Of a stretch of DNA of 64,000 nt, positions 41,854-59,361 are shown piece after piece (position 1 is the first letter of the stretch; the number at the start of each line of letters is the position of its first letter). The stretch spans positions 1 to 64,000 of the IMG/VR virus record IMGVR_UViG_3300005530_000004; one strand, written 5' to 3'. Origin of the DNA: a virus. The translations under genes and the position numbers were made by a program. Under the pieces are notes generated by a model. It ran no database searches, was not told the origin of the DNA, and worked only from the letters and a program-made list of their open reading frames with translations.

Positions 41854-42174
41854 ATGGGATTCTATATTAATCCACCAAATGAAACTAAAGAATCTTTCTT
41901 AAAAAGAGAAGGTCTACCTATTGAATATCCATTCACTTGGGATGATATTTTAGATGATTATCTTCCTGTAATATTAATAAATAATGGTGTATTTAATGCT
42001 GCTGGAATTGCATATTGTGAAGATAAATTAAATGTTTTTTGTGATCCACGTGATCCTAGACCAAAAAAATATTTTGTTGTTAAAATAGATAAACTATATG
42101 ATGTTTCGCCAATACCAACGGATTTTGTATCTAAAAATTCAATAATGAAAAAGAAACCAGAGGAGAAATTCTAA
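41854..42174 (+). CDS. hypothetical phage protein
   Basis: MGFYIN..LPVILINNG.F.AAGIAY..D.RPK. Confidence 0.7.
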   Translation: MGFYINPPNETKESFLKREGLPIEYPFTWDDILDDYLPVILINNGVFNAAGIAYCEDKLNVFCDPRDPRPKKYFVVKIDKLYDVSPIPTDFVSKNSIMKKKPEEKF

Positions 42175-42617
42175 TGAAGATGTTAATTGATGCTGTTCGT
42201 TATCAACGTGAAAAAGGTCTGAACACTAATCGACATATTATCCGTAAATTTAAAGATGATTCAGAAGCTTTAAAAGAAGCTGCCGAGATAATTCGCACAG
42301 TAGTATCTGAATGTATAGAAAGAAATCTGCCCATAGACGATGCACTTGCAGTAATGCACATTGCTACTTTAAATAATAGAACTTTAACTATCGAAGAATA
42401 CACTAGAATAATTGAAGCATCGAAAGAGAATGTAGGCCCATCATTGAATAAAATTAGACAACATGATCGAGGCAACTCTGCAAGCCTCTATAAGAAAATA
42501 GACGAGCAACATAAAACAGAATTAAATACATTACGAGAGAATCTTACGGAGAACCATAGAAAAGAGCTTGAAGCACTTAAAGATCAGCATAGAAGAGATT
42601 TGGAGAAACATATATGA
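42174..42617 (+). CDS. hypothetical protein
   Basis: ORF; RBS. Confidence 0.6.
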   Translation: MKMLIDAVRYQREKGLNTNRHIIRKFKDDSEALKEAAEIIRTVVSECIERNLPIDDALAVMHIATLNNRTLTIEEYTRIIEASKENVGPSLNKIRQHDRGNSASLYKKIDEQHKTELNTLRENLTENHRKELEALKDQHRRDLEKHI

Positions 42618-42859
42618 ACAGCATATATCTAATAAGAAATAAATCTTTTCTTGATACAAATAGATATATTGCAATCTGCGCAAAAGATAGAGTTGATGCA
42701 GTTAGAATATTGCTGGAAACTTGTGGTTTAATAGTCAAAAATTGTCCTCATCCAGATATAGAAAGACTAGAAGGATTGAATTCTGGTTCGCATACAATTT
42801 ATCGTGTATACTTGAATGATTCAAACCATACACAATTAGAGTTTCTGGTGACAGGATAA
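42614..42859 (+). CDS. hypothetical protein
   Basis: ORF; ATGA overlap. Confidence 0.55.
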   Translation: MNSIYLIRNKSFLDTNRYIAICAKDRVDAVRILLETCGLIVKNCPHPDIERLEGLNSGSHTIYRVYLNDSNHTQLEFLVTG

Positions 42860-42864
42860 TAGCT

Positions 42865-43122
42865 ATGAACGAATACATCCTTAGTCTATATTGTTATGGC
42901 AAGTTAAGACCAAATCAAGAATTACATATAAGGAATGATAGGGCATCAAATTCAAAGGATATAATTCTTGAAATATATGATTATGATTATAAAACATATA
43001 GATCATATAGAGCCTTTAGACGTGTACCAATAGAACAATTAAAGCTGTCTACTATTGATCTTATTGAATATACAATAAACAATATGCTTGAAGAGATAGA
43101 AAAAGAATATGAAAAACGCTAA
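42865..43122 (+). CDS. hypothetical protein
   Basis: ORF. Confidence 0.55.
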   Translation: MNEYILSLYCYGKLRPNQELHIRNDRASNSKDIILEIYDYDYKTYRSYRAFRRVPIEQLKLSTIDLIEYTINNMLEEIEKEYEKR

Positions 43123-43405
43123 AAACAACAAACATAAAAATAATGCTAAAAACAACGCTAAAAACAACGCTAAAAACATTCGTCAAGCCTATAACGAACT
43201 AGAAAATCGTTATAGGCTTCTTGCAGATGCACATTTAATTCTGCAACGCACAATGAAGCTGATACTAATATCTCAGAAACAAAGTCCGCCTATGCTTTCT
43301 TATTCAAATAAAGAAGCAGAATATTACACTCTCCATGAATTAGATGATATGCGATTACAAGTAAGAGAAAATGAAGAATTAAATAGAATGGAGATAAGTA
43401 TTTAA
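43109..43405 (+). CDS. hypothetical protein (KNNA repeats)
   Basis: ORF. Confidence 0.55.
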   Translation: MKNAKNNKHKNNAKNNAKNNAKNIRQAYNELENRYRLLADAHLILQRTMKLILISQKQSPPMLSYSNKEAEYYTLHELDDMRLQVRENEELNRMEISI

Positions 43406-43406
43406 T

Positions 43407-45665
43407 ATGAGCGAGCCAGCACAGCAGCAATCCTTATCAGATATATTTGAAGAATTTGATAATATATTTGAGAAGAAAAAACGAAAGAAAAAAGATGTAT
43501 TCACTAAAACAATATCTGTAAAAGAAATGGAGGCTTCGCATGATATTAGATTTGCACAAGCTGCTTCTACTTCTACTTCTACTTCTACTTCTACTTCTAT
43601 TCCTAAAAGCAACGGAGGTTTAATTTGTTACAACGATTCTTATGAACGAGTTCTTCGAGGAATAATTGGTGCTGAGACAATATTTCTCGATTTAGAAACT
43701 GGCAGCTATGATCCTAAAATAACTTCATTAGATCCTTGGAAAAATTGTTGGCCAATAGGTGTAGCAATTTGTGTAGAAGAATATGGGCCAGCTTACTATA
43801 TTCCAATAAATAAAGACAACGAAAATAAAGTCTATGATCTAATATTTGCAATATTTCACCATCCAAACTGCAAGCGGTGGGTAAATCACAACGTAAAATA
43901 TGATGCTCACGTATTAAAGAATTCTGGTGGAATTACACTACCGTATTCGGTGCAGTTAATCGACACTGTAACATTGTCTAAACTTATTGATTCAGATAGA
44001 TTTAGATATGGCTTGGATATATTATCAAAAGATTGGTTAGACGAAGATATATCACAATATGAACTTGCATTCAAACCATACTTACATAAAAATAAAGACT
44101 ACTCTGTAATACCAGTAGATATTATTGGGCCATATGCTTGTCAAGATGTTATTACAAATAGGAAGTTATATAAATATATTTGTGAGAATCTCCCAGAAGA
44201 GTGCTATTTTGTTCGTGATATAGAAATAGAATTGACAAGAGTTCTATTTGATATTGAACAAAATGGAATGCGAATAGATCCAGACAGTTTGCAGATAACA
44301 GAGGTTCTTAACTATAAAAAACTAATAGAAATAGAAGAAGAACTAGAACGCATTACGGGCAGGATTTTCCGTCCGCATACAAATGCAGATTGCTTTGACA
44401 TTATATGTAACTTTTATGGTTTACCAGTTCTTAAATGGACAAATCAATCTGATGATGAAGAAGTAGAAGTAGATGAAGCGGAAAATGAAGATGAAGGAAA
44501 AAAAGGAAAAGGTGGTCCAAGTTTCGACAAGTTTGCTTTAACAGCATATTTATCTCATCCGACTGTACTAACAAACCCAAATATAAGACGGGTAATAGAA
44601 TTAATATCTGAATACAGGAAGAAAAATACATTCAACAATCTATTTGTTAAAAAATATAGGGAATTGGCAAGTGGAAATTTGTTACATCCATCTTACAATC
44701 AATGTGTACGATCTGGAAGATTGTCCTGCAAGCATCCAAATGCGCAGCAATTAAATGAAGAAGCTAAAGAGTTGATATTGCCGTATGGTAATGAAGGTAA
44801 TGAAGTATTCGTATCGTATGACTTTTCGCAAATTGAATATAGGACAATTGCACATTATATTGAAAGTCCATTATTATTAGATAAATATAATAATGATCCA
44901 GACGTTGATTTCCATGAGTTCGTTGCTGAATTAGTTAGAGAACAAACTGGCCTTGAAGGAATGACAAGAAAGGGTGGTAAAACTTTAAACTTCGGTTTAG
45001 GTTTTAATATGGGGAAGGCAAAGCTATTAAAATCTTTGCGTGGCGTTAAAGATTTAATGGACAGTTTATCAAAAGAAATAGATGAAGCCGGGGTTCCTGA
45101 AAACGAAAAAGAATCTGTATTTGCACGAGAATCAGAAAAACGCGCAGAGGCAGTATTCAATGCTTATCATAGAACTTTTCCAGAAATGAAAAGAACGTCT
45201 CGACAAGCACAAGCAGTTTGCGAACAACGTGGATACATCAGAAATCTATACAATAGACGAAGACACTTAAATAAGCAATTTGCATATAAAGCTTTCAATA
45301 CAATAAATCAAGCCAGTGCTGCTGATTTGATGAAGGCAGCTATGGTTAAAATTGGTAAATTACTTAGAGATTGTAATGAAAATAGCAGCAAAATCCGTAT
45401 TGTTGCTGATGTTCACGATGAAATATTATTCTCCATGCCAAAGCAGCTTGCAGAAGATGAACGAATTACACATACTATTGCATATATTCTTGAACATCCT
45501 ACTTTACCGAATAATATAGATGGAACAGAAAAGAAGTTGCTTGTTCCAATTCGTGTCTCAATGGGGATAGGTAATAATTGGAAAGAAGCCAGTAAATCTG
45601 CCAGAGTTTACAATTACGATAAAGCAGTAAGCGTTGAAGAGTTTAAGGAGATAATCAATGGATAA
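43407..45665 (+). CDS. polA: DNA polymerase family A with 3'-5' exonuclease
   Basis: FLDLET, HNVKYD, YACQD, SGRLSCKHPNAQQ, YDFSQIEYR, RKGGKTLNFG, NTINQASAAD, VHDEI. Confidence 0.96.
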   Translation: MSEPAQQQSLSDIFEEFDNIFEKKKRKKKDVFTKTISVKEMEASHDIRFAQAASTSTSTSTSTSIPKSNGGLICYNDSYERVLRGIIGAETIFLDLETGSYDPKITSLDPWKNCWPIGVAICVEEYGPAYYIPINKDNENKVYDLIFAIFHHPNCKRWVNHNVKYDAHVLKNSGGITLPYSVQLIDTVTLSKLIDSDRFRYGLDILSKDWLDEDISQYELAFKPYLHKNKDYSVIPVDIIGPYACQDVITNRKLYKYICENLPEECYFVRDIEIELTRVLFDIEQNGMRIDPDSLQITEVLNYKKLIEIEEELERITGRIFRPHTNADCFDIICNFYGLPVLKWTNQSDDEEVEVDEAENEDEGKKGKGGPSFDKFALTAYLSHPTVLTNPNIRRVIELISEYRKKNTFNNLFVKKYRELASGNLLHPSYNQCVRSGRLSCKHPNAQQLNEEAKELILPYGNEGNEVFVSYDFSQIEYRTIAHYIESPLLLDKYNNDPDVDFHEFVAELVREQTGLEGMTRKGGKTLNFGLGFNMGKAKLLKSLRGVKDLMDSLSKEIDEAGVPENEKESVFARESEKRAEAVFNAYHRTFPEMKRTSRQAQAVCEQRGYIRNLYNRRRHLNKQFAYKAFNTINQASAADLMKAAMVKIGKLLRDCNENSSKIRIVADVHDEILFSMPKQLAEDERITHTIAYILEHPTLPNNIDGTEKKLLVPIRVSMGIGNNWKEASKSARVYNYDKAVSVEEFKEIING

Positions 45666-45855
45666 ACAAAATCAGCAATATAAAGCATATCTCGGCGATA
45701 GCGTCTACATAGATTTCGATGGATATGGTTTAGTATTAACGACTGAAAATGGTATAGAAACAACAAATAGAATTTATCTTGAACCAGAAGTATTCAATAA
45801 ATTAGAAGTGTATGTTAAAGAATTAAAGAAACAATTATTAGATGCGAGAGATTAA
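45658..45855 (+). CDS. hypothetical phage protein
   Basis: YLGDSVY.DFDG..LTTENG..NRIYLEPEV. Confidence 0.75.
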   Translation: MDKQNQQYKAYLGDSVYIDFDGYGLVLTTENGIETTNRIYLEPEVFNKLEVYVKELKKQLLDARD

Positions 45856-45915
45856 ATAATGTATTTTTAAGTTTTTGGGGAAAGCTAGGGAATTAGCCGA
45901 TATATGTACACTATA

Positions 45916-45929
45916 TGTACATTTGTACA
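45916..45929. promoter_or_regulatory. TGTAC-N4-GTACA palindromic operator candidate
   Basis: lies within a cluster of four TGTACA (45905-45944); second copy at 63465-63478. Confidence 0.4.
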
Positions 45930-46107
45930 CTATTTTACTGTACATTTGTCTATCTATCAAGAAAATAATATTTGGAAAATAAGAAAAATTTCCTGCTAAA
46001 CAAAGTCAATTTTCTCGGGATTTTCAACAAAATATATTTGACAACGCAAGTATCATACCGGGAATGGTATTTGCGTCGCGGGCGCGGCCGCGCGAAGTAA
46101 CACTGTC

Positions 46108-46200
46108 TCGGCGGATCGTCGGGCGACCGACGATCCGCCGACGATCCGCCGACGATCCGCCGACGATTCGGCCCGCTGCGCTCGATTAAATCGAGCGCAG
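46108..46200 (+). repeat. GC-rich hairpins and 11-bp tandem repeat (CCGACGATCCG x4)
   Basis: 15-bp stem with GCGA loop at 46108-46141; repeats at 46127-46170; 11-bp stem at 46176-46200. Confidence 0.85.
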
Positions 46201-46240
46201 CACTTGCAAAAGATTCCTCAAAATAATCGTGGCAAGAGTA

Positions 46241-46269
46241 TTGACTTGCCGAATGAATCATGGAATACT
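46241..46269 (+). promoter_or_regulatory. putative sigma70 early promoter
   Basis: TTGACT-17-AATACT with TG extended -10. Confidence 0.5.
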
Positions 46270-46288
46270 TCACCTAGTTGATTGATTG

Positions 46289-46302
46289 TGCTCTTTGAAA
46301 AC
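46289..46302 (+). promoter_or_regulatory. rrn-type boxA antitermination element
   Basis: TGCTCTTTGAAAAC about 15 nt after the predicted +1; resembles boxA (E. coli TGCTCTTTAACA). Confidence 0.6.
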
Positions 46303-46375
46303 TTGGTTAGCGCGGCAACGGTTCGACGGAGCTAGCTCCGTCCCTGCCTAATCAAGCTTGCAAGCCGCGTACACA

Positions 46376-46762
46376 ACCACTAGGCGTTTTATTGTGCGGC
46401 GTCGTGTTCAACAGGGCAACAGGGCAATGGTCGCCAAACAACACGACAACCACAATAAAACGGAGAGAACAAAGTGAACAAATACTTTGTAATTTGGACC
46501 TACGTTGCGAATTACGGAAACTTGGAAGTCTTCGCCGATAGTGCGGAAGAAGCTTCCAAGATCGTGCTTAGCTCTTTCAGCACTGATTTCTCGGAACGCG
46601 GAACGGTCTATGTTTTTTCCGAGCCGGAGTACATTTACAACGGCCGCGAAGAAACGAAAAAGCGGAAGCAACAGAAAATCCAACAGGATATTGATAACAG
46701 ACTCAGCCGATAAGCAACACGACAACACGACATGGACGCCGCACAATAAAACGCCTAGTGGT
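46376..46762 (+). repeat. 28-bp perfect inverted repeat enclosing gene 46474-46713
   Basis: 46376-46403 is the reverse complement of 46735-46762. Confidence 0.95.
46474..46713 (+). CDS. hypothetical early protein
   Basis: GGAG RBS + GTG; LEVFADSAEEA motif. Confidence 0.7.
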   Translation: MNKYFVIWTYVANYGNLEVFADSAEEASKIVLSSFSTDFSERGTVYVFSEPEYIYNGREETKKRKQQKIQQDIDNRLSR

Positions 46763-46768
46763 AACAAG

Positions 46769-47133
46769 TAGCTCACCAGTGATTTAATCCTGCCCTGTTG
46801 ATTGTGTATCAAACGCCAAACAACACGACAACACGACAACACGAAGGATACAATAAAATGACATTGGCTAAAAAGCGTTTCGACGACAATGAAATCGTGA
46901 AAGAACACGAGCTGCCCTATCGACCATTCCGTGTCTCAGCCTCTTTGGAGAGTTTTTTTCTGCGGCTTGATGCCGCACAAATGACGCGCGAGAAATTAGA
47001 GTCTATCCAGACTCTAATCTGGCAAAAGCGCAAGGTAGAACACGATCTATGTTCCGCCGTGCAAAATGTTTTGAGGGGGCAATCTCGATAACAGGGCAAC
47101 ATAACAGGGCAGGATTAAATCACTGATGAGCTA
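46769..47133 (+). repeat. 32-bp inverted repeat enclosing gene 46858-47091
   Basis: 46769-46800 vs 47102-47133; one C.A mismatch and a terminal G.U. Confidence 0.95.
46858..47091 (+). CDS. hypothetical early protein
   Basis: AAGGA + ACAATAAAATG start context. Confidence 0.65.
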   Translation: MTLAKKRFDDNEIVKEHELPYRPFRVSASLESFFLRLDAAQMTREKLESIQTLIWQKRKVEHDLCSAVQNVLRGQSR

Positions 47134-47148
47134 GCAATCGTGCAACTA

Positions 47149-47194
47149 ATTCGGTAAATTCTCGCGCCGAATAAACTAACAATAAATGCGAGAA
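47149..47194 (+). promoter_or_regulatory. H-type RNA pseudoknot in leader
   Basis: S1 ATTCGGT/GCCGAAT, S2 TTCTCGC/GCGAGAA. Confidence 0.6.
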
Positions 47195-47219
47195 AACACT
47201 TTGTTTTGGAGACTGTACA

Positions 47220-47909
47220 GTGTCAACCACCCACAAGAATGCCCCCGCCAATCGTGACTCCGCGAAAGTTTCTGATCGGCCAGCCGAACAGAAAACCGAA
47301 ACGGCCACGACGACGGAAAAGAGGCGTGGTCGTCCGGCCGGAAACGGCGAGAAAAAGCAAACCGGGAAAATCAAATATCCCGGAGTTGCGAACGGGGAAA
47401 AACTCTCCGTCGTGCCGACGGATTTCGACCCCGCCAAACACAAGCGATTATCTGCGGACAATTTCACTTCACCCGCGCTTTTTGACGCGCACAAGGCGAA
47501 GCATTCCAAGCCGCGAAATTTCCACCCATTGCTTTTGAATGAGGCGGGCGAACCGGAAAACAAATTGTCGGAATTCCCTTCTGATGTTTCGGTCGAAGTG
47601 AGTTACGATTATTCGCTTAACGGCGAAAAGATCGTCGCTTTCCGCCCGCGTCATTTTTCGGATCGTCGTGCGCTTGCAAAAGCTCTGGTTCCCGCGCTGC
47701 AAAAGCAAATCGCCGCGCTGGAAAAAATCAGCACGATGACGGACGATCAAATCGAAAAACTCGGCCGCAAGGAAGAGTTGAAGCGCGGCATCGAGAAGAA
47801 AATCAAGGAAGCGACCGGATCGACAATCAGCATGGAGATGCTCGAAAAGATGCTCGCAACTCTTCCGCCGGAGATGCAAGAAAAGTATGCTGCGGCGACG
47901 GCGGGCTAG
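47220..47909 (+). CDS. basic early protein with AT-hook-like motif
   Basis: GGAG RBS + GTG; KRRGRPAG; GC-rich codons; followed by a terminator. Confidence 0.8.
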   Translation: MSTTHKNAPANRDSAKVSDRPAEQKTETATTTEKRRGRPAGNGEKKQTGKIKYPGVANGEKLSVVPTDFDPAKHKRLSADNFTSPALFDAHKAKHSKPRNFHPLLLNEAGEPENKLSEFPSDVSVEVSYDYSLNGEKIVAFRPRHFSDRRALAKALVPALQKQIAALEKISTMTDDQIEKLGRKEELKRGIEKKIKEATGSTISMEMLEKMLATLPPEMQEKYAAATAG

Positions 47910-47947
47910 TTGCTTGCGAATTACTTGTTTGGCGACAAGTTTTCTCG

Positions 47948-47982
47948 ACCCCTACGAAACAATTGTTTCGTAGGGGTTTTTT
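47948..47982 (+). terminator. intrinsic terminator
   Basis: ACCCCTACGAAAC-AATT-GTTTCGTAGGGGT followed by a T tract. Confidence 0.85.
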
Positions 47983-48002
47983 CGTGCGCTGAAATAATAC
48001 TT

Positions 48003-48108
48003 GCGTCGTCCAGGGAGCGAGCCAGCGTCGTCCAGGGAGCGAGCCAGCGTCGTCCAGGGAGCGAGCCAGCGTCGTCCAGGGAGCGAGCCAGCGTCGTCCA
48101 GGGAGCGA
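48003..48108 (+). repeat. 22-bp tandem repeat x4.8 (GCGTCGTCCAGGGAGCGAGCCA)
   Basis: perfect copies at 48003, 48025, 48047 and 48069; partial copy at 48091. Confidence 0.95.
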
Positions 48109-48122
48109 ATCCTAACAGCAGC

Positions 48123-48151
48123 TTGACGCGCTGCCGCGCTGTAGTTACACT
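48123..48151 (+). promoter_or_regulatory. sigma70 promoter
   Basis: TTGACG-17-TACACT. Confidence 0.7.
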
Positions 48152-48193
48152 GGCCGCACCGGGGCAATAGGCGCACCATGCGTCAAATAAAAA

Positions 48194-48252
48194 TATTTAT
48201 TTTCTCATTTAGCGGCGAGAAAAATAGATACAGTGAACAATAAAATGCCGCT
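48194..48252 (+). promoter_or_regulatory. H-type RNA pseudoknot in leader (second copy of the architecture)
   Basis: S1 TTTTCTC/GAGAAAA (extendable), S2 AGCGGC/GCCGCT. Confidence 0.6.
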
Positions 48253-48473
48253 TTTTCCACTGCACACTTCTACTCCTCTTTTTTGGAGAAAATATAATCA
48301 AGCAATAATCCGACAATCCGACAATCCGACAATTCGACAATTATTTTTTTCTCTGAACAATAAAACATGCTGTAACATTGGAGTTGCTGCAAGCCGATCG
48401 GATCGACCAAAATAAATCATTCACGCAAATAATTCCTACGTAGGAATTAAAAATTGAAGGGATACAAAAGACA

Positions 48474-48920
48474 ATGGAAATTACAGTAGAAAAAATTGCC
48501 AATTTACTCTTAAATCCAGAAAATCGTGATAAGATGCGAGAAACGAAAAATAGGGCTTGTGTAGAAATAGAAGAAGCCGCTAAGCAAATAGCTTTCCAGC
48601 GTAAAAAAATCGACGATGGTTTGATGCGACTCGCAGCCGCGAAAACGGACAAGGAAAATCCTAAGCATATCGAATCATATATAAAAAGCTTCAAGGAACG
48701 TCTTGAACGTGCTAAAAAAGAAATTGCAGAATGTCAAAAGCAAATTGAGATTCTGCAAGCTAGACTACCATCGGAAGCGCGGGCCGCTAAGGTAGAAAGT
48801 ATCGAGCAAGAGCTAAAGCAATATGAAAGCAATGTTAATGCGCTGATTTCGCAAAAGGGAGAATGGACTAGGTTGCGAGATTTAATTTCGCAAGCCGAAG
48901 AATTAAGAAAATTGTCTTGA
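48474..48920 (+). CDS. coiled-coil hypothetical protein
   Basis: ORF; heptad pattern. Confidence 0.75.
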   Translation: MEITVEKIANLLLNPENRDKMRETKNRACVEIEEAAKQIAFQRKKIDDGLMRLAAAKTDKENPKHIESYIKSFKERLERAKKEIAECQKQIEILQARLPSEARAAKVESIEQELKQYESNVNALISQKGEWTRLRDLISQAEELRKLS

Positions 48921-49073
48921 ATATCTTGAAAACAGAAACAAAAACAAAATTCGAGAACCCGACATAATTCCGTACAGTAGTGTACAAAATTGGTACGGAA
49001 TTTTGCCGCGTTTTCTGTCGAGTGGTATCGACGGCGCAGCACAATAAAACTTGTTTTGAAGAAAAGGAAGAAG

Positions 49074-49241
49074 ATGACATACAATCAATTACTAGATTGC
49101 ATTGAAGCAATGACATTAGAGCAAAGAGAGTGTGATGTTACAGTAGAAATAGACGATGAATGCTATCCAGCTACACTATATATTTCTGACGATAACCACG
49201 ACTCTTTAGAAAAGGATCACCCTGTTTTGAAAGCAATGTAA
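49074..49241 (+). CDS. small hypothetical phage protein
   Basis: AAGGA RBS; MTYNQLL..LEQ..CDVTV..HPVL. Confidence 0.7.
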   Translation: MTYNQLLDCIEAMTLEQRECDVTVEIDDECYPATLYISDDNHDSLEKDHPVLKAM

Positions 49242-49243
49242 AT

Positions 49244-49296
49244 AACAGCCATGTTTCCGCCGCAACATAAATGTTGCGGCGGTGGCGTAGGTTGTT
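49244..49296 (+). repeat. conserved intergenic hairpin element, copy 1
   Basis: AACAGCCATGTTTCCG-[stem]-CGGTGGCGTAGGTTGTT. Confidence 0.9.
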
Positions 49297-49374
49297 TGCT
49301 ATTTATGTTGTACTAGCAAGCCTACAATTCCGGCAAGTTGGAATTAAAAGAATACTTGCAATGAATCTTTTCCA

Positions 49375-49845
49375 ATGAGGGAAGTTGTGATGATCGCAAC
49401 AAAAAAGACGAATGGACGTTTCTCACGTTTCTCGGAACAGGATGCAAATGATCTAGCAACGAATCTTGCTAAATCTCTTTCGCATCAATTCTCTTTCCGC
49501 GAAAGCAAAGCTCTCGAAAAGAGAGTTGCAGCGTCTCCAGAGACGACAACAAAAAAGCTTCGATCTGGAAGCAAACTCTTTCAAATGCGGACAATTCTTT
49601 CGTCCGCCAAACGCGATAAATCTTTTCGCGTGAATCTGCAAGCCACAGAGCTTGCAGTAAAACTGTTCTCTCGCATGTTTTCTCGAAAACTTTGGCGAGA
49701 GAATATTGTTTATTCTCGTCGCGCCTGGTTGAACGGTTTTCCGGTCAACTATGACCAGCAAGATTTAATGCTGATTTGTCGTCGCGTTGCGAGAAGAATT
49801 GCGAGAAGAGTTGCTTCTAGCAATTGCTATGAAAATAGCAAATAG
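49375..49845 (+). CDS. basic hypothetical protein
   Basis: ORF; Arg/Lys-rich. Confidence 0.65.
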   Translation: MREVVMIATKKTNGRFSRFSEQDANDLATNLAKSLSHQFSFRESKALEKRVAASPETTTKKLRSGSKLFQMRTILSSAKRDKSFRVNLQATELAVKLFSRMFSRKLWRENIVYSRRAWLNGFPVNYDQQDLMLICRRVARRIARRVASSNCYENSK

Positions 49846-49855
49846 CTGATTCTGC

Positions 49856-49919
49856 AGACAGTCATGTCTCCGTGCTGTTATTTAACAGATAAATAACAGC
49901 ACGGTGCCGTAGATTGTTT
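49856..49919 (+). repeat. conserved intergenic hairpin element, copy 2
   Basis: AGACAGTCATGTCTCCG-[stem]-CGGTGCCGTAGATTGTTT. Confidence 0.9.
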
Positions 49920-49961
49920 TCTAGTTTCTGACACAATAAATTGAAGAAGGAGAGAAAGAAA

Positions 49962-50720
49962 ATGCAATTCGACAATGAAAAATTAAAAAAGATTATTGAG
50001 AAGCATCGAAAATATTATCTTAATGAAGAAGGTGGAGAACGTGCAGATTTGTCCGGTGCAAATTTGTTTGGTGCAGATTTGTCACGTGCAAATTTGTCCG
50101 GTGCAGATTTGTCCGGTGCAAATTTGTCGCGTGCAAATTTGTTTGGTGCAAATTTGTTTGGTGCAGATTTGTTTGGTGCAAATTTGTCTGGTGCAGATTT
50201 GTCGCGCGCAAATTTGTCTGATGCAAATTTGTCGCGTGCAATTTTGTCCGGTGCAAATTTGTCGCGTGCAAATTTGTTTGGTGCAAATTTGTCCGGTGCA
50301 GATTTGTCGCGTGCAAATTTGTTTGGTGCAAATTTGTCCGGTGCAGATTTGTTTGGTGCAAATTTGTTTGGTGCAAATTTGTTTGGTGCAGATTTGTCCG
50401 GTGCAAATTTGTTTGGTGCAAACTTATCCAGTGCAAAATTAAATGAAGAAACCAATATTACAGGAGAGTCTTGGAAGGAATATTTAGAAAAAGTTGTTCC
50501 GGCTTTACTGACAGCTGGCGGAAAAACAATCCAAGAAATTGTAGAATCTGGCTGTTGGAATTGCCATGAATGGCAAAATTGTCCAATGCACATCGCATTT
50601 GGAATTAATAATAAAGAGGACGGGCCAATTTTATTAAGGCCTAGGATCAAACAATTTATTCAATTATTTGATTTTAATTTGATCCCATGTCCGGTTGTTC
50701 CATTTACTTCTGTTAATTAA
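49962..50720 (+). CDS. pentapeptide repeat protein
   Basis: ~28 A(D/N)L(S/F)(G/R) repeats; Cys/His C-terminal domain. Confidence 0.92.
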
Positions 50721-50721
50721 C

Positions 50722-50782
50722 AAACAATCATGTTTCCGCGCCACGATATTTTTATATCGTGGCGCGATGACGTAGATTGTTT
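50722..50782 (+). repeat. conserved intergenic hairpin element, copy 3
   Basis: AAACAATCATGTTTCCG-[stem]-CGATGACGTAGATTGTTT. Confidence 0.9.
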
Positions 50783-50844
50783 TCTGGTTCTAGTTTCTAG
50801 TGGTTTCTGATTTCTGGCACAATAAAAGAAATGGAGATTGACAA

Positions 50845-51081
50845 ATGAAAGAAAAGATTGAATGTTTACTTCCGGATGATGGAAAAACTTGCGTCCGGCT
50901 ACGCGGAAAGAATGGTAACTTTGTTACCATTTTGCCTTGTGGAACCGACGTAAATGGAAATGTTACAAATGTCGATTTGTGCAAACCGAATGGAGAAGTG
51001 TTGTATTGTGGAGTAGATATTGAACTGGTCAATATCTTTTGTGAAGAACTCGGATTGGAAAGAATCTTGCAGGAGAAGTGA
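50845..51081 (+). CDS. hypothetical protein
   Basis: GGAG RBS. Confidence 0.65.
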   Translation: MKEKIECLLPDDGKTCVRLRGKNGNFVTILPCGTDVNGNVTNVDLCKPNGEVLYCGVDIELVNIFCEELGLERILQEK

Positions 51082-51086
51082 AATAA

Positions 51087-51788
51087 ATGAATCGCGATGA
51101 ATTGCTTGACACAATAAAAAGATTGCTTGCGCTTTCTAGCTCATCAAATGAGAATGAAAGCGCTTCGGCGCTTGCGCGAGCAAATAAATTGATGATGGAA
51201 CATAATATTTCCATGTTTGATGTTAATAATGAAACATCAACATCAAATTATGATGAAATAGATGTTTATACCGCCGGGCGAGCATCATCAAAAGATCCGT
51301 ATTTGTGCAGTATTCTGCAAGATTACTTCTTTGTGAAAGCGATTTATATTCCATCCGACGGTTATCAACGAAAAACCACGTTGAAATTTTTCGGTGATAA
51401 AGTAAATATTCAAATTGCTGTATATGTCTATAAAGTATTGGATATACTTTTTAGTGTTTACGCAGATGTAAACAAGATTCAAGTAAAACATCGGCGAGCA
51501 TATTATCAAGGATTATGCCACGGATTTAAGCGAAAACTTAAAGAAGAACGTGATGCAATGAATAGAAACATTGCAAGTAGTGGAACAGCACTTGTCTTAA
51601 TTGATAAGGCGCTTGTCAAAGCATATAATAACAGATTTCCGACCACTAAAACAAAATCTGTTTCTAAAATGACAATGAATGACCGTGCTTACAATCAAGG
51701 AATTGTTGACGCAAAAGAAATAAACTTGCGTCAAGGTATAGAAGGTACAAAAGGCACCACACAACCAAAGATTCAAGATTGGAGTTGA
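51087..51788 (+). CDS. DUF2786-family protein
   Basis: TIKRLLALSSSSNENESASALARANKLMMEHNI; AYYQG; AYNQG. Confidence 0.85.
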   Translation: MNRDELLDTIKRLLALSSSSNENESASALARANKLMMEHNISMFDVNNETSTSNYDEIDVYTAGRASSKDPYLCSILQDYFFVKAIYIPSDGYQRKTTLKFFGDKVNIQIAVYVYKVLDILFSVYADVNKIQVKHRRAYYQGLCHGFKRKLKEERDAMNRNIASSGTALVLIDKALVKAYNNRFPTTKTKSVSKMTMNDRAYNQGIVDAKEINLRQGIEGTKGTTQPKIQDWS

Positions 51789-51790
51789 TA

Positions 51791-51847
51791 AAACAATCAT
51801 GTCTCCGCCGTGCAGAATATTCTGCACGGCGACGGCGTAGGTTGTTT
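51791..51847 (+). repeat. conserved intergenic hairpin element, copy 4
   Basis: AAACAATCATGTCTCCG-[stem]-CGACGGCGTAGGTTGTTT. Confidence 0.9.
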
Positions 51848-51880
51848 CTGGTTTCTGACACAATAAATGTAAGGGAGAAG

Positions 51881-52096
51881 ATGGTTATGTCTAATTCAAT
51901 TCATTATTTCGGAATAACAATTAACAGAGAGGGTGATATAGTAGTAGATGATATTACTATATTTAGTCATATAAGAGAAACAGCAAAATATTTAGGGTAT
52001 CGAACACAAGATATACACCGAGATTCTCGTCTCCCTCAACTTGTAATTCTAATTGGCAATCAAAAAGATGCGATCGCCTTTATTGAATTGATATAG
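51881..52096 (+). CDS. hypothetical protein
   Basis: AAGGGAG RBS before ATG 51881. Confidence 0.6.
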   Translation: MVMSNSIHYFGITINREGDIVVDDITIFSHIRETAKYLGYRTQDIHRDSRLPQLVILIGNQKDAIAFIELI

Positions 52097-52174
52097 GGGT
52101 GTAGAATTTCGCGGATTATGGCTAAAAAGATATTGCGTTATAGTTTCTGGTTTCTGATACAATAAATTGGAGAA

Positions 52175-52411
52175 GTGAAACAAATGGAAGAAAAAGAAAA
52201 ATCAAGATTAGCAATTGGATTCAATTGTGAACAAAATTACACTCGTTCAATTTGGACTTTCAGCACTGATCCACAAGAAGTTGCTAATCAATTTTCTATT
52301 GATGGTAATTCTACCACGTTAGATCAAATTCTACTTGTTTCTAATTCACAAGACAAAAATAATGGACCGATTGTAGTTAAGCATTGGAATCTCGACAAGG
52401 ACTATAAATAA
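52175..52411 (+). CDS. hypothetical protein
   Basis: GGAG RBS. Confidence 0.6.
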   Translation: MKQMEEKEKSRLAIGFNCEQNYTRSIWTFSTDPQEVANQFSIDGNSTTLDQILLVSNSQDKNNGPIVVKHWNLDKDYK

Positions 52412-52866
52412 TGGCAATTAAAACCCCATATTTAATTCAAAGATGCACAATACAGAAATTTAGTGGTAATCAAAAAGTTAGTGAATTTTTACAGTTTGAT
52501 TACATGGGGTCGGCTGAATTTGAATTTGGTGCATTACCTAAATGTCTTCGAGAAATATTTTCTATTAAAAATGACTTAAAAATCTTTAGAGTATTATATC
52601 TTAAAGATCTATATGTTCTTTGCACCGAGAGTAATATAAGAGAAATTGAAGTTTATTTATCAAGATTATGTGGATTAGGAGATATCCTAATCTTAAAAGA
52701 GCCAATCAGTATAGAAAAACTATTAAAAAAAGAAAAACCATATAGACGAGATAATTTTTGGATTGATATTGAAAATTATTTTTGTTTCTCTTTTGATAAA
52801 AAAGCTCTGCAAAATTTTAGAATTGCATTAGACAATTCCATTTCTTATATGGATAAGAATAAGTAG
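52411..52866 (+). CDS. conserved hypothetical phage protein
   Basis: YLIQR..FDYMGSAEFEFGALPK..FWIDIEN. Confidence 0.8.
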   Translation: MAIKTPYLIQRCTIQKFSGNQKVSEFLQFDYMGSAEFEFGALPKCLREIFSIKNDLKIFRVLYLKDLYVLCTESNIREIEVYLSRLCGLGDILILKEPISIEKLLKKEKPYRRDNFWIDIENYFCFSFDKKALQNFRIALDNSISYMDKNK

Positions 52867-52871
52867 ACAAC

Positions 52872-53225
52872 ATGCACATTCGCGCTGTAATTGGCGGAAG
52901 ATATACTAATGTTGTTTTCGATATTCCTGTTCCCATTGTAGATTGGCTATGGGAAGACTTACGCGAGAAGATGTTGCAGAAAAGACGAATAAATGAAGAT
53001 GCAATAAAACTAAAATTGGCAAGAGAAACATATGAAAAAGCTGCAAAGCTGCAAGCTGAAATTGCTGCCGATTGTGCAGTAAAGTTTGCAGAGTATTCAG
53101 AAATTGATTCTGGATTGAAAGAAGCAGAAAAAGCGATGGGCGGAAGAGGAAAAAAACCGCGAGTGCGGTCGAGAAAAACTAATTACAAAAAGAAGTCAAT
53201 GTATAAATTGAACGGAGAGAATTGA
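52872..53225 (+). CDS. hypothetical protein
   Basis: ORF. Confidence 0.6.
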   Translation: MHIRAVIGGRYTNVVFDIPVPIVDWLWEDLREKMLQKRRINEDAIKLKLARETYEKAAKLQAEIAADCAVKFAEYSEIDSGLKEAEKAMGGRGKKPRVRSRKTNYKKKSMYKLNGEN

Positions 53226-53226
53226 G

Positions 53227-53427
53227 ATGTCTAAGATGATACTAACTGAATCAGACTTGAAATTACTTGAAAAATACAATGTTACACTTGATGGCGCAAT
53301 AACTGAAGCCCCAGCACATTTTCAAAATAGTGATGCAGCGCTCGCTGGATATTGGTATGCAATGTACAAACAACTCAAAAAAGAGTTTGATTATTACAAA
53401 AAGTTAATTGAAGATGGTAGAAAATAG
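53227..53427 (+). CDS. hypothetical protein
   Basis: GGAG RBS. Confidence 0.6.
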   Translation: MSKMILTESDLKLLEKYNVTLDGAITEAPAHFQNSDAALAGYWYAMYKQLKKEFDYYKKLIEDGRK

Positions 53428-53462
53428 TCGATGATTTGAAATAACAATAAACAAATTTAATT

Positions 53463-53512
53463 TAATTCCCTAGATAATTATTATCTAGGGAATTATTTTT
53501 ATTTTTATTTTT
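53463..53512 (+). terminator. intrinsic terminator ending the early unit
   Basis: TAATTCCCTAGATAAT/ATTATCTAGGGAATTA followed by T tracts. Confidence 0.8.
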
Positions 53513-53557
53513 GGACTAGTGTACAAGAAATTTTGCCGCTTTTGAAGGTGTGGAACG

Positions 53558-53881
53558 ATGGTCATTTATAGTGAGGGTTTAACGATGGTCGTTTGGAAAT
53601 ATGATATTTTATTAAAGTCTGGAATTCAAAAGATAAGGATGCCTAAAGGTGCAAAAGTATTAACAGCACAAGTGCAAAGAGAAAATGATGGTTATGACGA
53701 TATTAAAATCTGGTGCTTAATTGATAATGGACAAGCAGAATTAGAATTAGTAGATCGACATTTTATTTTACGTGGAACTGGTCATTCATTCGCAGTTTCA
53801 AATAGTTATCCATTAAATTATATTGGAACAGTGCAAATTGATTATAGTGTTTGGCATATATTTGAAATTATAGGGGTGTGA
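53558..53881 (+). CDS. conserved hypothetical phage protein
   Basis: VWKY..MPKGAKVL..IW..GTGH..YIGTVQ..VWHIFE. Confidence 0.8.
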   Translation: MVIYSEGLTMVVWKYDILLKSGIQKIRMPKGAKVLTAQVQRENDGYDDIKIWCLIDNGQAELELVDRHFILRGTGHSFAVSNSYPLNYIGTVQIDYSVWHIFEIIGV

Positions 53882-54912
53882 GGAATATCAGCAGGAATAT
53901 CAATATGAAAATTAAATCAGAAATATGGGATGGCATTACACCATCTTTATATGCACACCTAAAAATAGACGGTGCATTTTTAAGGATAAAAAAGGATGAA
54001 CAAGGTGAGATTAAATGTTTATCCAGTATTGACACAGATTTAACTACGGCGATTACTAACTGCAAGCCTAGGTGGTTAGTTAATTTATACAAGAATATGC
54101 CGTTCAATTCTTGTATACTAGGCGAATTATTTTACTATGATACAGTAAATAGAAAAGGGCTTCCTGCAAGCTATATAAAGACCGGCTTAGCAAACGGTGA
54201 AAATTATTATGATGAAAACTCAACAGATATAACAGTAAGTAAGAAGTTAATGAAGGGGCAAGGACAACAGCAACAGGAACAGCAACAATATCAATTATGT
54301 TTCAGTGGATTTGCAATTGAATATGGATTTCCTGGAATAGATCACAATAGTGAATTAGACCAAGTAGAAATTAAATTAATGGCTCTAGGAATAGATGTTC
54401 CGCCAGCAATATCATTTAGATATAGTGAAGAATTTCCTAGCAAAGAAGAATTACTTGATAAGTATCTACAGAGAGATTATTTCAAAAATCGAACAAAATT
54501 TGATTATTCTACTCTTGCAGAAGGGTGGATGCTTAAAAGTGGTAATTTGACTGGTTGGAAAAAAGTTAAAAAAGAAAATACAATAGATTGTTTCATTGCT
54601 GGTTATATTCCAGGAAAAGGAAAATATTATGGAAAAGTAGGCAGCTTAATTTGTTGTGTATATAATGCCGCTGGTGCAGCTATGCAAATAGCTACGGCTG
54701 GTGGATTTAATGATGAGATAAGGGACTGGTTGACAGAACAATTTAAGAGCAATAAAGACGAATTGATTGGACAAGTAATAGAAATTCAATATCAATTTGT
54801 TGCAACGCAAGGTAGGTTGCGACACCCAAGATTTAAAAATTGGCGAGATGATAAGCTTGCAGAAGAATGCTTAACTTCGCAAGATGAAGAATTGGTCAAA
54901 TATTGGGGGTGA
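53878..54912 (+). CDS. ATP-dependent DNA ligase
   Basis: LKIDG, LGEL, EGWMLK, WKKVK, GKGKYYGKVGSL, LRHPRF..RDDK. Confidence 0.9.
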   Translation: MRNISRNINMKIKSEIWDGITPSLYAHLKIDGAFLRIKKDEQGEIKCLSSIDTDLTTAITNCKPRWLVNLYKNMPFNSCILGELFYYDTVNRKGLPASYIKTGLANGENYYDENSTDITVSKKLMKGQGQQQQEQQQYQLCFSGFAIEYGFPGIDHNSELDQVEIKLMALGIDVPPAISFRYSEEFPSKEELLDKYLQRDYFKNRTKFDYSTLAEGWMLKSGNLTGWKKVKKENTIDCFIAGYIPGKGKYYGKVGSLICCVYNAAGAAMQIATAGGFNDEIRDWLTEQFKSNKDELIGQVIEIQYQFVATQGRLRHPRFKNWRDDKLAEECLTSQDEELVKYWG

Positions 54913-59304: not shown

Positions 59305-59361
59305 TTAAGATTTAACTGTTTAACTGTTTAACTGTTTAACCACTTTGTAAGGAGATTTGAC

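What the first reader, a model, noticed from the sequence alone, without database searches (positions are those of the whole stretch)
46241..47133. Early transcript built like an rRNA operon: boxA plus genes individually enclosed in long processing-type stems
Seen: a promoter candidate (46241-46269) followed by TGCTCTTTGAAAAC (46289-46302) and a closed leader domain (CGCGGC 46311 / GCCGCG 46364, with internal palindrome GACGGAGCTAGCTCCGTC). After a 6-nt linker, a perfect 28-bp inverted repeat (46376-46403/46735-46762) encloses gene 46474. After another 6-nt linker, an unrelated 32-bp inverted repeat (46769-46800/47102-47133) encloses gene 46858. Both enclosed genes share the leader GCCAAACAACACGACAAC. 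Extra (C/T)AACAGGGCA copies (46409-46426, 47089) can pair with TGCCCTGTTG, offering alternative folds. Established: rrn operons use boxA/NusB-NusE antitermination, and 16S/23S are each enclosed in RNase III stems. Inference: the phage borrows the host rRNA transcription/maturation route to release its first mRNAs as monocistronic, end-paired and very stable RNAs. I know of no description of protein-coding genes enclosed this way.
Basis: partly seen in the sequence, partly recalled or inferred. Interest (0 to 1): 0.88.

Follow-up and report, generated by a model that had tools for sequence, protein, structure and literature searches.

The report
Phage messages built like pre-rRNA
An uncultured soil phage starts a highly expressed operon with an exact copy of the signal that Bacillus-type bacteria put in front of their ribosomal RNA, then wraps each of two small genes in its own long RNA helix as bacteria do with 16S and 23S rRNA; five unrelated phages do the same, and RNA from soil samples breaks exactly at those helices.

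Summary
A sigma-A-type promoter (46241-46269) is followed by TGCTCTTTGAAAAC (46289-46302), a closed hairpin domain, then two long inverted repeats (28/28 and 31/32 bp). Each repeat encloses one small ORF with its own Shine-Dalgarno site. Gene 3 and a strong terminator (47947-47978) follow.

What I added:
- The 14-mer is letter for letter the rrn-leader boxA of many Bacillales, 80-220 nt upstream of 16S.
- The two repeats are the only long-range ones of note in the 74.9-kb genome.
- Two soil metatranscriptomes cover only 46406-47935 of the 12 kb examined. Their contigs break at both stems (random-gap p about 2e-4).
- Five further phage contigs with no shared proteins carry the same boxA, followed within -8 to +51 nt by an 18-26-bp long-range stem. 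Four of them enclose small ORFs, and the arm sequences are unrelated to ours.
- The phage has no recombinase and no RNase III of its own.

Best reading: host RNA polymerase, modified at boxA, helps leader-trailer-type helices form, and host RNase III cuts them. This releases separate messages.

Cleavage, NusB binding and timing are inferred. I found no published description. This scan noted the same design on other phages before, without RNA data.

The parts
46241..46269 (+). Sigma-A/sigma-70-type promoter candidate: TTGACT, 17-nt spacer, TG-n-AATACT
   Evidence: Consensus scan, 9/12 with extended -10 TG. Promoters are similarly placed in L306, L285 and L415. The TSS is not mapped.
46289..46302 (+). 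rrn-type boxA, TGCTCTTTGAAAAC
   Evidence: Identical 14-mer lies 80-220 nt upstream of the 16S 5' end in Bacillales genomes. It occurs once in the phage genome on this strand. The same 14-mer precedes long-range stems in five unrelated phage contigs.
46311..46369 (+). Closed leader domain (CGCGGC/GCCGCG) with inner 7-bp hairpin 46325-46342
   Evidence: Sequence; present in the centroid fold.
46376..46403 (+). 5' arm of stem 1
   Evidence: 28/28 complementary to 46735-46762; duplex -53.9 kcal/mol, pair probability about 1. Not covered by RNA contigs.
46432..46450 (+). Shared C/A-rich leader copy 1 (CGCCAAACAACACGACAAC)
   Evidence: Identical to 46814-46832 (D4). AACACGAC units are complementary to GTCGTGTT at 46400-46407 and form a competing local hairpin.
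46474..46713 (+). Gene 1 (79 aa), enclosed by stem 1; SD GGAGAG upstream
   Evidence: About 80 homologues at E<=1e-3, forming a conserved ~62-aa family (WTYxANYG...FSxDF...VYVF) with no Pfam, PHROG or PDB match. Covered by RNA contigs.
46735..46762 (+). 3' arm of stem 1
   Evidence: RNA contigs end at 46740 (X4) and 46723 (X5).
46769..46800 (+). 5' arm of stem 2, 6 nt after stem 1
   Evidence: 31 of 32 pairs with 47102-47133, -52.4 kcal/mol. RNA contigs restart at 46810 (X4) and 46796 (X5).
46814..46832 (+). Shared C/A-rich leader copy 2
   Evidence: D4.
46858..47091 (+). Gene 2 (77 aa), enclosed by stem 2; SD AAGGA upstream
   Evidence: ORF. No homologue in 5.8 billion proteins. Covered by RNA contigs.
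47102..47133 (+). 3' arm of stem 2
   Evidence: RNA contigs end at 47090 (X4) and 47109 (X5); the next ones start at 47135 (X4) and 47130 (X5).
47220..47909 (+). Gene 3 (229 aa), not enclosed; function unknown
   Evidence: Two homologues at 54% and 44% identity. Weak homologues sit 1-3 kb after PolA in distant relatives. Highest RNA contig depth of the unit. No Pfam match.
47947..47978 (+). Intrinsic terminator (14-bp stem, T run) closing the unit
   Evidence: RNA contigs stop at 47935 (X4) and 47883 (X5), with none in 48015-48415.

Best explanation
This is a self-contained transcription unit (about 46276 to 47985) read by host RNA polymerase from a sigma-A-type promoter.

Proposed mechanism:
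1. The nascent leader carries an exact Bacillales rrn boxA. This recruits host NusB/S10 and the other Nus factors and tethers the leader to the polymerase.
2. That tether holds the 5' arm of stem 1 next to the RNA exit. When the 3' arm emerges about 330 nt later, it displaces a competing local hairpin and forms a 28-bp leader-trailer-type helix around gene 1.
3. Stem 2 starts only 6 nt after stem 1 closes. Its 5' arm is therefore brought back beside the tethered boxA, and the same thing happens around gene 2.
4. Host RNase III cuts both helices. The leader is discarded, and three separate RNAs result (gene 1, gene 2, gene 3) with different steady-state levels.
5. The unit ends at an intrinsic terminator.

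Shown here: the sequence anatomy; the identity of boxA with host-type rrn boxA; transcription of the unit; RNA contigs interrupted at both stems; recurrence of the design in unrelated phages.

Inferred: Nus factor binding, RNase III cleavage, the order of folding events, early timing, and the Bacillales host.
For: boxA:
- It is 14/14 identical to the rrn leader of Oceanobacillus, Peribacillus, Paenibacillus, Virgibacillus, Brevibacillus, Cytobacillus and others. The 16S 5' end lies just downstream on the same strand.
- B. subtilis NusB binds its rrn boxA-like RNA (PMC13753749).

Stems:
- 28/28 and 31/32 pairs, -54 and -52 kcal/mol, pair probability about 1.
- They are unique in the genome.

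RNA:
- Two metatranscriptomes from different studies cover 46406-47935 and almost nothing else of 42000-54000.
- The contigs are 46417-46740, 46810-47090 and 47135-47935 in X4, and 46406-46723, 46796-47109 and 47130-47883 in X5. All are 100% identical to the window.
- Random gaps would hit both arm regions in both runs with p about 2e-4.
- DNA runs X1 and X2 hold 99% and 95% of the sampled words of the same stretch.

Recurrence:
- L306/G001, L285, L415, L436 and L309 have the identical boxA, then a stem of 18-26 bp starting -8 to +51 nt later. L285 has two stems with a 1-nt linker and a shared post-arm leader.
- No proteins are shared among the six.
- Such stems occur in 3/17 non-coding boxA hits, 1/177 coding-context hits (that one, L309, is itself an instance) and 0/206 antisense controls; p = 0.002.
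- In G001 the stem is the only long-range inverted repeat of the genome.

Mechanism precedents:
- A stable boxA complex bridges the leader to RNAP and raises co-transcriptional RNase III cleavage of the long-range helix (bioRxiv 10.64898/2026.03.17.712431).
- B. subtilis RNase III cuts long-range mRNA duplexes with up to 505 nt between the cleavage sites (PMC11780869).

Distant PolA relatives carry GCTCTTTGACAA at the equivalent place, after PolA.
Against: - No transcript ends were mapped. Contigs cannot give exact ends or strand, and depth was only 3-13.
- A stable duplex could be lost in library preparation rather than cut in the cell.
- The DNA run that I laid (X3) is itself fragmented across 46306-47270. 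The statement that 'DNA goes on where RNA stops' therefore rests on word shares of X1 and X2, not on laid contigs.
- The leader lacks the hairpin that precedes boxA in Bacillales rrn leaders.
- RNA stops at the terminator, so classical antitermination is not evident.
- No orthologous relatives could be fetched, so there is no base-by-base covariation. Of the five transition-type mismatches in the arms, four are G.U on the sense strand and one is C.A, which is not significant.
- Host and infection timing are unknown.
Confidence: 0.58

Rival explanations
1. The helices form in RNA but are not processing sites. They pair the 5' and 3' untranslated ends of each cistron to control translation or protect the message from RNase J1, RNase Y and 3' exonucleases, as in B. 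subtilis hbs or S. aureus icaR. boxA acts only on elongation.
For: 5'/3'-UTR pairing that stabilises or regulates mRNAs is documented in Firmicutes (PMC5737220 and PMC3868564, found). Competing local hairpins sit next to the Shine-Dalgarno site of gene 1: 46385-46396 pairs with 46451-46462. Extra AACAGGGCA copies offer alternative folds, which suits a switch.
Against: A perfect 28-bp duplex is an ideal RNase III substrate in a host that has the enzyme. RNA contigs are interrupted at both stems in two runs, and the three segments differ 2-4 fold in contig depth. That fits separate molecules better than one intact RNA. The leader is missing from the RNA.
Confidence: 0.22
2. The inverted repeats act on DNA. 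They would be ends of invertible segments, recombination sites of mobile gene cassettes, or MITE-like terminal repeats left by insertion of foreign cassettes into the phage.
For: The unit is compositionally foreign: GC 48-50% against 33%, and GC3 0.50-0.61 against 0.21-0.23. It has its own promoter and terminator, like a moron. The enclosed genes differ between phages.
Against: - No serine or tyrosine recombinase is found in the complete genome, with positive controls.
- No strand-switch joints appear in any laid run.
- The two repeat pairs are unrelated in sequence, so a single site-specific enzyme is unlikely.
- There are no target-site duplications (flanks TACACA/AACAAG and AACAAG/GCAATC) and no other copies in the genome.
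- In six phages the 5' arm keeps a fixed relation to a transcription signal (boxA) on the sense strand. The control direction gives 0/206.
Confidence: 0.05
3. The boxA match is functional mimicry for another purpose, and the stems are unrelated to it. For example, the abundant phage leader might titrate host NusB/S10 away from rRNA synthesis, or the motif might work as a promoter-proximal element.
For: The unit is the most abundant phage RNA seen in the region examined. boxA-like motifs recur after PolA in distant relatives that lack long stems (L084, L051).
Against: The leader that carries boxA is absent from the RNA contigs, which is poor for a decoy. The tight spacing of boxA and the 5' arm (-8 to +73 nt) in six unrelated phages, and the enrichment test, tie the two features together.
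Confidence: 0.1

Closest known systems
Bacterial rrn operon leader: boxA (NusB/S10 site) followed by the 16S and 23S leader-trailer helices cut by RNase III (E. coli model PMC10250234; Bacillus boxA-NusB binding PMC13753749)
   Same: An identical boxA sequence, downstream of a strong housekeeping promoter. Long-range helices of 25-30 bp close off a segment of several hundred nt. There are two consecutive enclosures in one transcript.
   Different: The enclosed RNAs are small protein-coding genes with Shine-Dalgarno sites, not rRNAs. There is no hairpin before boxA and no second boxA before the second helix; a 6-nt linker stands there instead. The loops are 300-330 nt rather than 1.5-2.9 kb, and the unit ends at a terminator.
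RNase III processing of phage early polycistronic mRNA (T7 early region; Bacillus phage SP82 early transcripts; recalled from established knowledge, not tested here)
   Same: A host RNA polymerase transcript of a phage is cut by host RNase III into individual messages.
   Different: The T7 and SP82 sites are local hairpins between cistrons. Here the duplex strands lie on either side of a whole cistron, and a boxA precedes them.
Long-range intramolecular RNase III duplexes in B. subtilis mRNAs (PMC11780869)
   Same: The host group is the same (if the host inference holds). The duplex strands are hundreds of nt apart (up to 505 nt in that study) within mRNAs.
   Different: Those sites are cellular and are not described as enclosing a complete SD-plus-ORF unit. 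They are not linked to boxA. They mostly initiate decay rather than release cistrons.
Lambda nut sites and boxA upstream of protein-coding genes (suhB and others; PMC5725501)
   Same: A boxA in the leader of a protein-coding transcription unit, in one case of a phage.
   Different: Lambda needs N and boxB, and its purpose is terminator read-through. The suhB boxA represses. Here boxA is of the rrn consensus type, has no N/boxB partner, and is coupled to long-range helices.
Morons (autonomous promoter-gene-terminator cassettes of deviating composition in phage genomes)
   Same: Its own promoter and terminator, sharply different GC and codon composition, and high expression relative to neighbouring genes.
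   Different: Morons are defined in temperate phages and are expressed from the prophage. This phage has no integrase. Morons are not known for boxA or gene-enclosing helices.

Membership tests
rrn-type boxA (NusB/NusE-S10 loading site) | Sequence matches the boxA found in the rrn leaders of the host clade | tested here: met
   The 14/14 identical motif lies 80-220 nt upstream of the 16S 5' end, on the same strand, in many Bacillales. Rfam SSU hits confirm this in L142, L147, L161 and L181. The host itself is inferred, not known.
rrn-type boxA (NusB/NusE-S10 loading site) | Lies in the transcribed leader, sense strand, shortly after a promoter | tested here: inconclusive
   A promoter-like site ends 20 nt upstream, and the five other instances have the same layout. 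However, the RNA contigs do not cover the leader, so transcription of boxA itself was not seen.
rrn-type boxA (NusB/NusE-S10 loading site) | Flanked by boxB-type hairpin upstream and boxC downstream, as in rrn leaders | tested here: not met
   Bacillales rrn leaders show a GTCGC...GCGAC hairpin about 10 nt before boxA and TGAACAA after it. The phage has neither. A hairpin domain follows boxA instead.
rrn-type boxA (NusB/NusE-S10 loading site) | Binds NusB/S10 and modifies elongating RNA polymerase | not testable with these tools
   Needs binding and transcription assays.
Leader-trailer (processing) helix, RNase III substrate | Near-perfect duplex of about two helical turns or more, formed by sequences flanking the enclosed RNA | tested here: met
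   28/28 and 31/32 pairs, -54 and -52 kcal/mol, pair probability about 1.
Leader-trailer (processing) helix, RNase III substrate | Pairing maintained in evolution while the sequence changes | tested here: inconclusive
   Five unrelated phages keep a helix at the same place with unrelated arm sequences.
Leader-trailer (processing) helix, RNase III substrate | RNase III-dependent cuts on both strands with a 2-nt 3' overhang | not testable with these tools
   Only a hint is available: RNA contigs of two studies are interrupted at both helices.
Leader-trailer (processing) helix, RNase III substrate | Encloses a structural RNA (16S, 23S) | tested here: not met
   It encloses ORFs with SD sites. Gene 1 belongs to a conserved protein family. 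No Rfam family matches.
T7/SP82-type intercistronic RNase III sites | Local hairpin between cistrons | tested here: not met
   The paired strands are 301-331 nt apart and flank a whole cistron.
Invertible DNA segment (inverton) | Inverted repeats plus an invertase, with both orientations present in the population | tested here: not met
   No resolvase/invertase or tyrosine recombinase in the complete genome, with positive controls. No joints in four laid runs. Contigs can miss rare orientations.
MITE / transposon terminal inverted repeats | Target-site duplication and multiple copies | tested here: not met
   The flanks differ. The arms occur once each in the genome.
Moron | Own promoter and terminator, deviating composition | tested here: met
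Moron | Carried by a temperate phage and expressed from the prophage | tested here: not met
   No integrase in a genome rated complete. The lifestyle is otherwise unknown.

The most novel reading that the evidence does not exclude
Phages of many hosts share a portable way of making messages 'as if they were pre-rRNA'. A host-type rrn boxA tethers the leader to RNA polymerase so that long-range helices close around individual early genes. Very short linkers let one boxA serve several helices in series. RNase III then releases each message. This would be a general, undescribed class of phage expression cassette. It would also be a natural test bed for the RNA-looping model of co-transcriptional processing.
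Probability: 0.45. Interest if true: 0.85.

Novelty: new variant of a known kind. Interest (0 to 1): 0.72.

Why it matters
If this reading is right, phages take over the whole rRNA synthesis and processing route to express protein genes: the boxA complex, the leader-trailer helix and RNase III, not just a promoter.

This would give a compact natural system (about 1.7 kb, two helices, one boxA) for testing whether boxA-mediated RNA looping drives long-range helix formation. That question has so far been addressed only on rRNA, in vitro.

It would also explain how phages obtain discrete, differently abundant messages from one early transcript in Firmicutes.

The exact boxA is a new kind of host clue for uncultured phages. 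Here it points to Bacillales other than the B. subtilis group.

For engineering, such cassettes could serve as insulated expression units that are cut out of their transcript in Gram-positive bacteria.

Tried and rejected
- Close relatives for covariation.
- IMG/VR and metagenome scans with PolA and gene 3 gave only relatives at 49% identity or less, or nothing.
- GenBank phage records hold nothing similar to the region or its leader.
- Gene-1 homologues in four other phages (L259-L262) are not enclosed by repeats. The enclosure is therefore not a trait of that gene family.
- The looser pattern boxA + GGTTAGC gave 20 hits, of which only L306 was real; the rest were coding-sequence coincidences.
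- L285 ORF1 is not a gene-1 homologue (hhalign probability 0.7%).
- Literature string searches for boxA variants returned mostly primers.
- Permissive Rfam search gave only chance-level hits.
- PF00940 (phage RNA polymerase) gave no hit, but the controls did not match either, so that says nothing.
- Gene 3 has no informative feature or structure neighbours.
- Stems of 18-22 nt enclosing AT-rich spacers about 9 kb after PolA in L001, L003, L011 and L033 look like a different arrangement. I did not pursue them.
- Parts of the laid stretch without RNA cover (42000-46400 and 49218-54000) are only absence of contigs, not proof of silence.
- The G.U bias of arm mismatches was too weak to indicate the strand.
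Full report
**Where it lies**

The window is the first 64 kb of a single 74,872-bp contig with a 100-bp terminal overlap, rated complete. All genes are on the + strand:
- terminase, portal, major head protein and tape measure at 3-30 kb;
- helicase, primase and a family-A DNA polymerase at 32-45.7 kb;
- then the finding;
- then small genes of unknown function, followed by ligase, methyltransferase, thymidylate synthase-like, MazG-like and HNH genes.

The finding is thus the first unit after the replication genes, at the head of a long run of small ORFs. The closest deposited phage has 35% polymerase identity. The genome is 33% GC throughout, except 46-48 kb at 48-50%. Genes 1-3 have GC3 of 0.50-0.61, against 0.21-0.23 for polymerase and capsid genes. 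The unit is therefore compositionally foreign to the rest of the phage.

**The observation**

The two inverted repeats are 28/28 and 31/32 complementary. They are the only notable long-range inverted repeats in the whole genome. Folded as RNA, 46270-47200 gives z = -10.5. In the full 1.7-kb transcript both stems have pair probabilities near 1 and duplex energies of -54 and -52 kcal/mol. Each stem encloses exactly one ORF with a Shine-Dalgarno site. A third gene follows unenclosed, and a 14-bp terminator hairpin with a T run closes the unit at 47947-47978.

Before the 3' arm exists, the 5' arm of stem 1 can fold back on 46440-46462, next to the gene-1 ribosome binding site. Formation of the long stem therefore requires displacing a local hairpin.

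**Is the motif a boxA?**

I scanned one genome per prokaryotic species for the exact 14-mer. Among the first 80 loci, about 17-19 are Bacillales or other Firmicutes in which the motif sits within about 200 nt of a contig end. It is preceded there by a small GTCGC...GCGAC hairpin and followed by TGAACAA. In four of these loci Rfam finds the 5' end of 16S rRNA just downstream on the same strand. The remaining hits lie inside genes of assorted phyla and look like chance.

So the phage carries, letter for letter, the rrn-leader boxA of many Bacillales: Oceanobacillus, Peribacillus, Paenibacillus, Virgibacillus, Brevibacillus, Cytobacillus and others. B. subtilis itself has AUGAUCUUUGAAA, and its NusB binds that RNA directly (PMC13753749).

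Shine-Dalgarno-like motifs precede 46% of the phage's ORFs, against 12% at random positions. The sample is rhizosphere. Together with the boxA, this makes a Bacillales host likely but not proven.

Distant polymerase relatives (L015, L017, L051, L084) carry GCTCTTTGACAA on the sense strand 0.3-1.4 kb after the polymerase gene. In L084 it lies about 25 nt after a -10 element. A boxA-like start of the post-polymerase unit therefore seems to be an old trait of this phage group.

**RNA evidence**

Seven public runs hold the stretch, three of them metatranscriptomes. I laid two RNA runs and two DNA runs on 42000-54000.

The RNA contigs cover only the unit:

| Run | Contig 1 | Contig 2 | Contig 3 |
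|---|---|---|---|
| X4 | 46417-46740 | 46810-47090 | 47135-47935 |
| X5 | 46406-46564 and 46573-46723 | 46796-47109 | 47130-47883 |

X5 also has two short pieces at 48737-49214. All contigs are identical to the window. What this shows:
- The unit is transcribed and far more abundant than its neighbours, which excludes DNA carry-over.
- RNA stops before the terminator.
- The leader (46276-46405) is absent.
- The contigs are interrupted at both arm regions in both runs.
- The gene-3 RNA starts within 3 nt of the outer end of stem 2 in both runs.

If the observed gaps were placed at random, they would hit both arm regions in both runs with p of about 2e-4. The arms are shorter than the assembler's 31-mers, so they should not break the graph. 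DNA runs X1 and X2 hold 99% and 95% of the sampled words of the stretch. Contig depth of the gene-3 piece is 2-4 times that of the enclosed genes in both runs, which fits separate molecules.

Caveats:
- Contigs give neither exact ends nor strand.
- Depth was low.
- The DNA run I laid (X3) is itself fragmented here.
- A stable duplex might be lost during library preparation rather than cut in the cell. Even then, the arms behave as a duplex in RNA.

**Recurrence in unrelated phages**

Scanning IMG/VR for the 14-mer and two 15-mers gave 276 occurrences. Most lie in ORFs. Among those in non-coding sequence I found five further instances:

| Locus | Layout |
|---|---|
| L306 (48-kb complete genome G001) | TTGACT-17-TACAAT, boxA, 51 nt, then a 25-nt stem (23 pairs) around a ~79-aa ORF with SD, then a 403-aa gene and a terminator |
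| L285 | TTGACA-17-TAGACT, boxA, 10 nt, a 26-bp stem around a 72-aa ORF, a 1-nt linker, a second 26-nt stem (25 pairs) around a 69-aa ORF, a third gene, a hairpin; both enclosed ORFs share the leader CCTAGAAAGATnGGT just after the 5' arm |
| L415 | TTGACA-17-TATAGT, boxA whose 3' half is part of an 18-nt stem (17 pairs) around a 110-aa ORF, then a terminator |
| L309 | a 24-bp stem starting at the end of boxA, around a 56-aa ORF |
| L436 | a 24-nt stem (23 pairs) directly after boxA, around a 125-nt non-coding domain |

The arm sequences are all different, and the enclosed proteins are unrelated. No protein is shared between any two of the six loci. In G001 the stem is the only long-range inverted repeat of the genome. 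The unit again opens the rightward early/replication arm and is again locally GC-rich.

A stem whose 5' arm begins within 150 nt after boxA occurs in:
- 3 of 17 non-coding hits;
- 1 of 177 'coding-context' hits (that one is L309, a true instance);
- 0 of 206 controls read in the antisense direction.

Fisher p = 0.002, with the discovery case left out. Gene-1 homologues in other phages are not enclosed. The stems therefore go with boxA, not with the gene.

**How it most likely works**

Published work shows that a stable boxA complex bridges the rRNA leader to RNA polymerase. This keeps the two halves of the RNase III helix together during transcription, doubles elongation speed and raises co-transcriptional RNase III cleavage (bioRxiv 10.64898/2026.03.17.712431). 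The leader-trailer helix is essential for 30S formation (PMC10250234). B. subtilis RNase III cuts long-range mRNA duplexes with up to 505 nt between the sites (PMC11780869).

The phage unit has all the cis elements of that pathway in the right order and on the right scale. I therefore propose this sequence of events:
1. boxA tethers the leader.
2. The 5' arm, at first held in a local hairpin, is captured by the 3' arm when it emerges.
3. RNase III cuts.
4. The leader is lost.

The 1-6-nt linkers between consecutive stems (this phage, L285) suggest that closing stem 1 brings the next 5' arm back beside the tethered boxA. One boxA would then serve two helices, where rrn operons use a second boxA in the spacer. 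This point is my inference.

RNA ends at the terminator here, and L306 and L415 also end in terminators. Terminator read-through is therefore probably not the purpose of boxA.

The phage has no RNase III, resolvase or integrase of its own, so host RNase III would do the cutting. Inversion and lysogenic 'moron' expression are both unlikely.

**What remains open**

Not shown:
- cleavage itself and its dependence on RNase III;
- NusB/S10 binding;
- the transcription start;
- timing in infection;
- the host;
- whether the released RNAs keep paired ends.

The functions of the three proteins are unknown. Gene 1 belongs to a conserved ~62-aa family without annotation. Gene 2 is an orphan. Gene 3 has two homologues and weak relatives in the phage group. 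The foreign composition of the unit is unexplained. It may be a horizontally moving cassette.

**Comparison and novelty**

Each component is known:
- rrn boxA and leader-trailer helices;
- RNase III processing of phage early RNA at local hairpins (T7, SP82; from established knowledge);
- long-range RNase III duplexes in Bacillus mRNAs;
- boxA upstream of protein-coding genes and in lambda nut sites (PMC5725501).

I found no paper describing protein-coding phage genes individually enclosed by leader-trailer-type helices behind an rrn boxA. I therefore class it as a new variant of a known kind.

This scan has noted the same design before on other DNA: phages of Pseudomonas, Streptomyces, Bacteroidota and Chloroflexota. 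Those are unchecked AI notes, not independent evidence. None of them reports RNA data, which this case supplies.

Noticed in passing
window 48003-48108: Perfect tandem array of 4.8 copies of a 22-nt unit (GCGTCGTCCAGGGAGCGAGCCA), directly after the terminator of the boxA unit. It could be iterons, a protein-binding array or a structured RNA.
   Followed up: no
window 46108-46201: Upstream of the promoter there are 3.7 copies of an 11-nt unit (CCGACGATCCG). They form a 15-bp perfect hairpin with alternative registers, followed by a 13-bp perfect hairpin at 46175-46201. The region is very GC-rich and is not covered by RNA contigs.
   Followed up: partly
window 48307-48341: Array of 4.4 copies of an 8-nt unit (AATCCGAC). 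DNA run X3 shows several loose ends exactly here, with variant repeat units. This is probably a hypervariable repeat tract between strains.
   Followed up: no
window 46000-51000: GC content steps from 33% to 50% at 46.0 kb and decays to background by about 51 kb. GC3 of genes 1-3 is 0.50-0.61 against 0.21-0.23 in core genes. G001 shows the same local GC rise at its boxA unit.
   Followed up: partly
window 49941-50720: 259-aa pentapeptide-repeat protein (Pfam E 5e-40) among the small genes downstream. Such proteins often mimic DNA.
   Followed up: no
L258:2334-2936 (genome 66334-66936), window 58456-60075: Three genes suggest altered nucleotide pools or modified DNA: one with a dATP/dGTP diphosphohydrolase N-terminal domain, a MazG-like pyrophosphatase and a thymidylate-synthase-like gene. 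No PurZ-type gene was seen among the ORFs scanned.
   Followed up: no
L001:13493-13704, L003:10514-10753, L011:13651-13861, L033:20671-20845: In distant PolA relatives, an 18-22-nt perfect inverted repeat encloses a 140-200-nt spacer. In three of them this spacer is AT-rich and promoter-like, and lies between a stop codon and the start of a conserved MK(R/G)K... gene, about 9 kb after PolA. This is a different kind of enclosure: it surrounds an intergenic region, not a gene.
   Followed up: partly
L051:12289-12448: Four direct copies of GGGCCCTCAAGAGATCT facing one inverted copy, just upstream of the boxA-like motif of this relative.
   Followed up: no
L401:4935 and 8348; L271: Another IMG/VR contig carries two identical copies, 3.4 kb apart, of a boxA with about 100 nt of identical upstream sequence. 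A related copy occurs in L271. This may be a repeated promoter-boxA module or an rrn-like region in a 'viral' contig.
   Followed up: no
window 43566-43601: The polymerase gene contains a TCTACT hexamer run that encodes a Ser-Thr repeat (STSTSTSTS) near the N-terminus.
   Followed up: no
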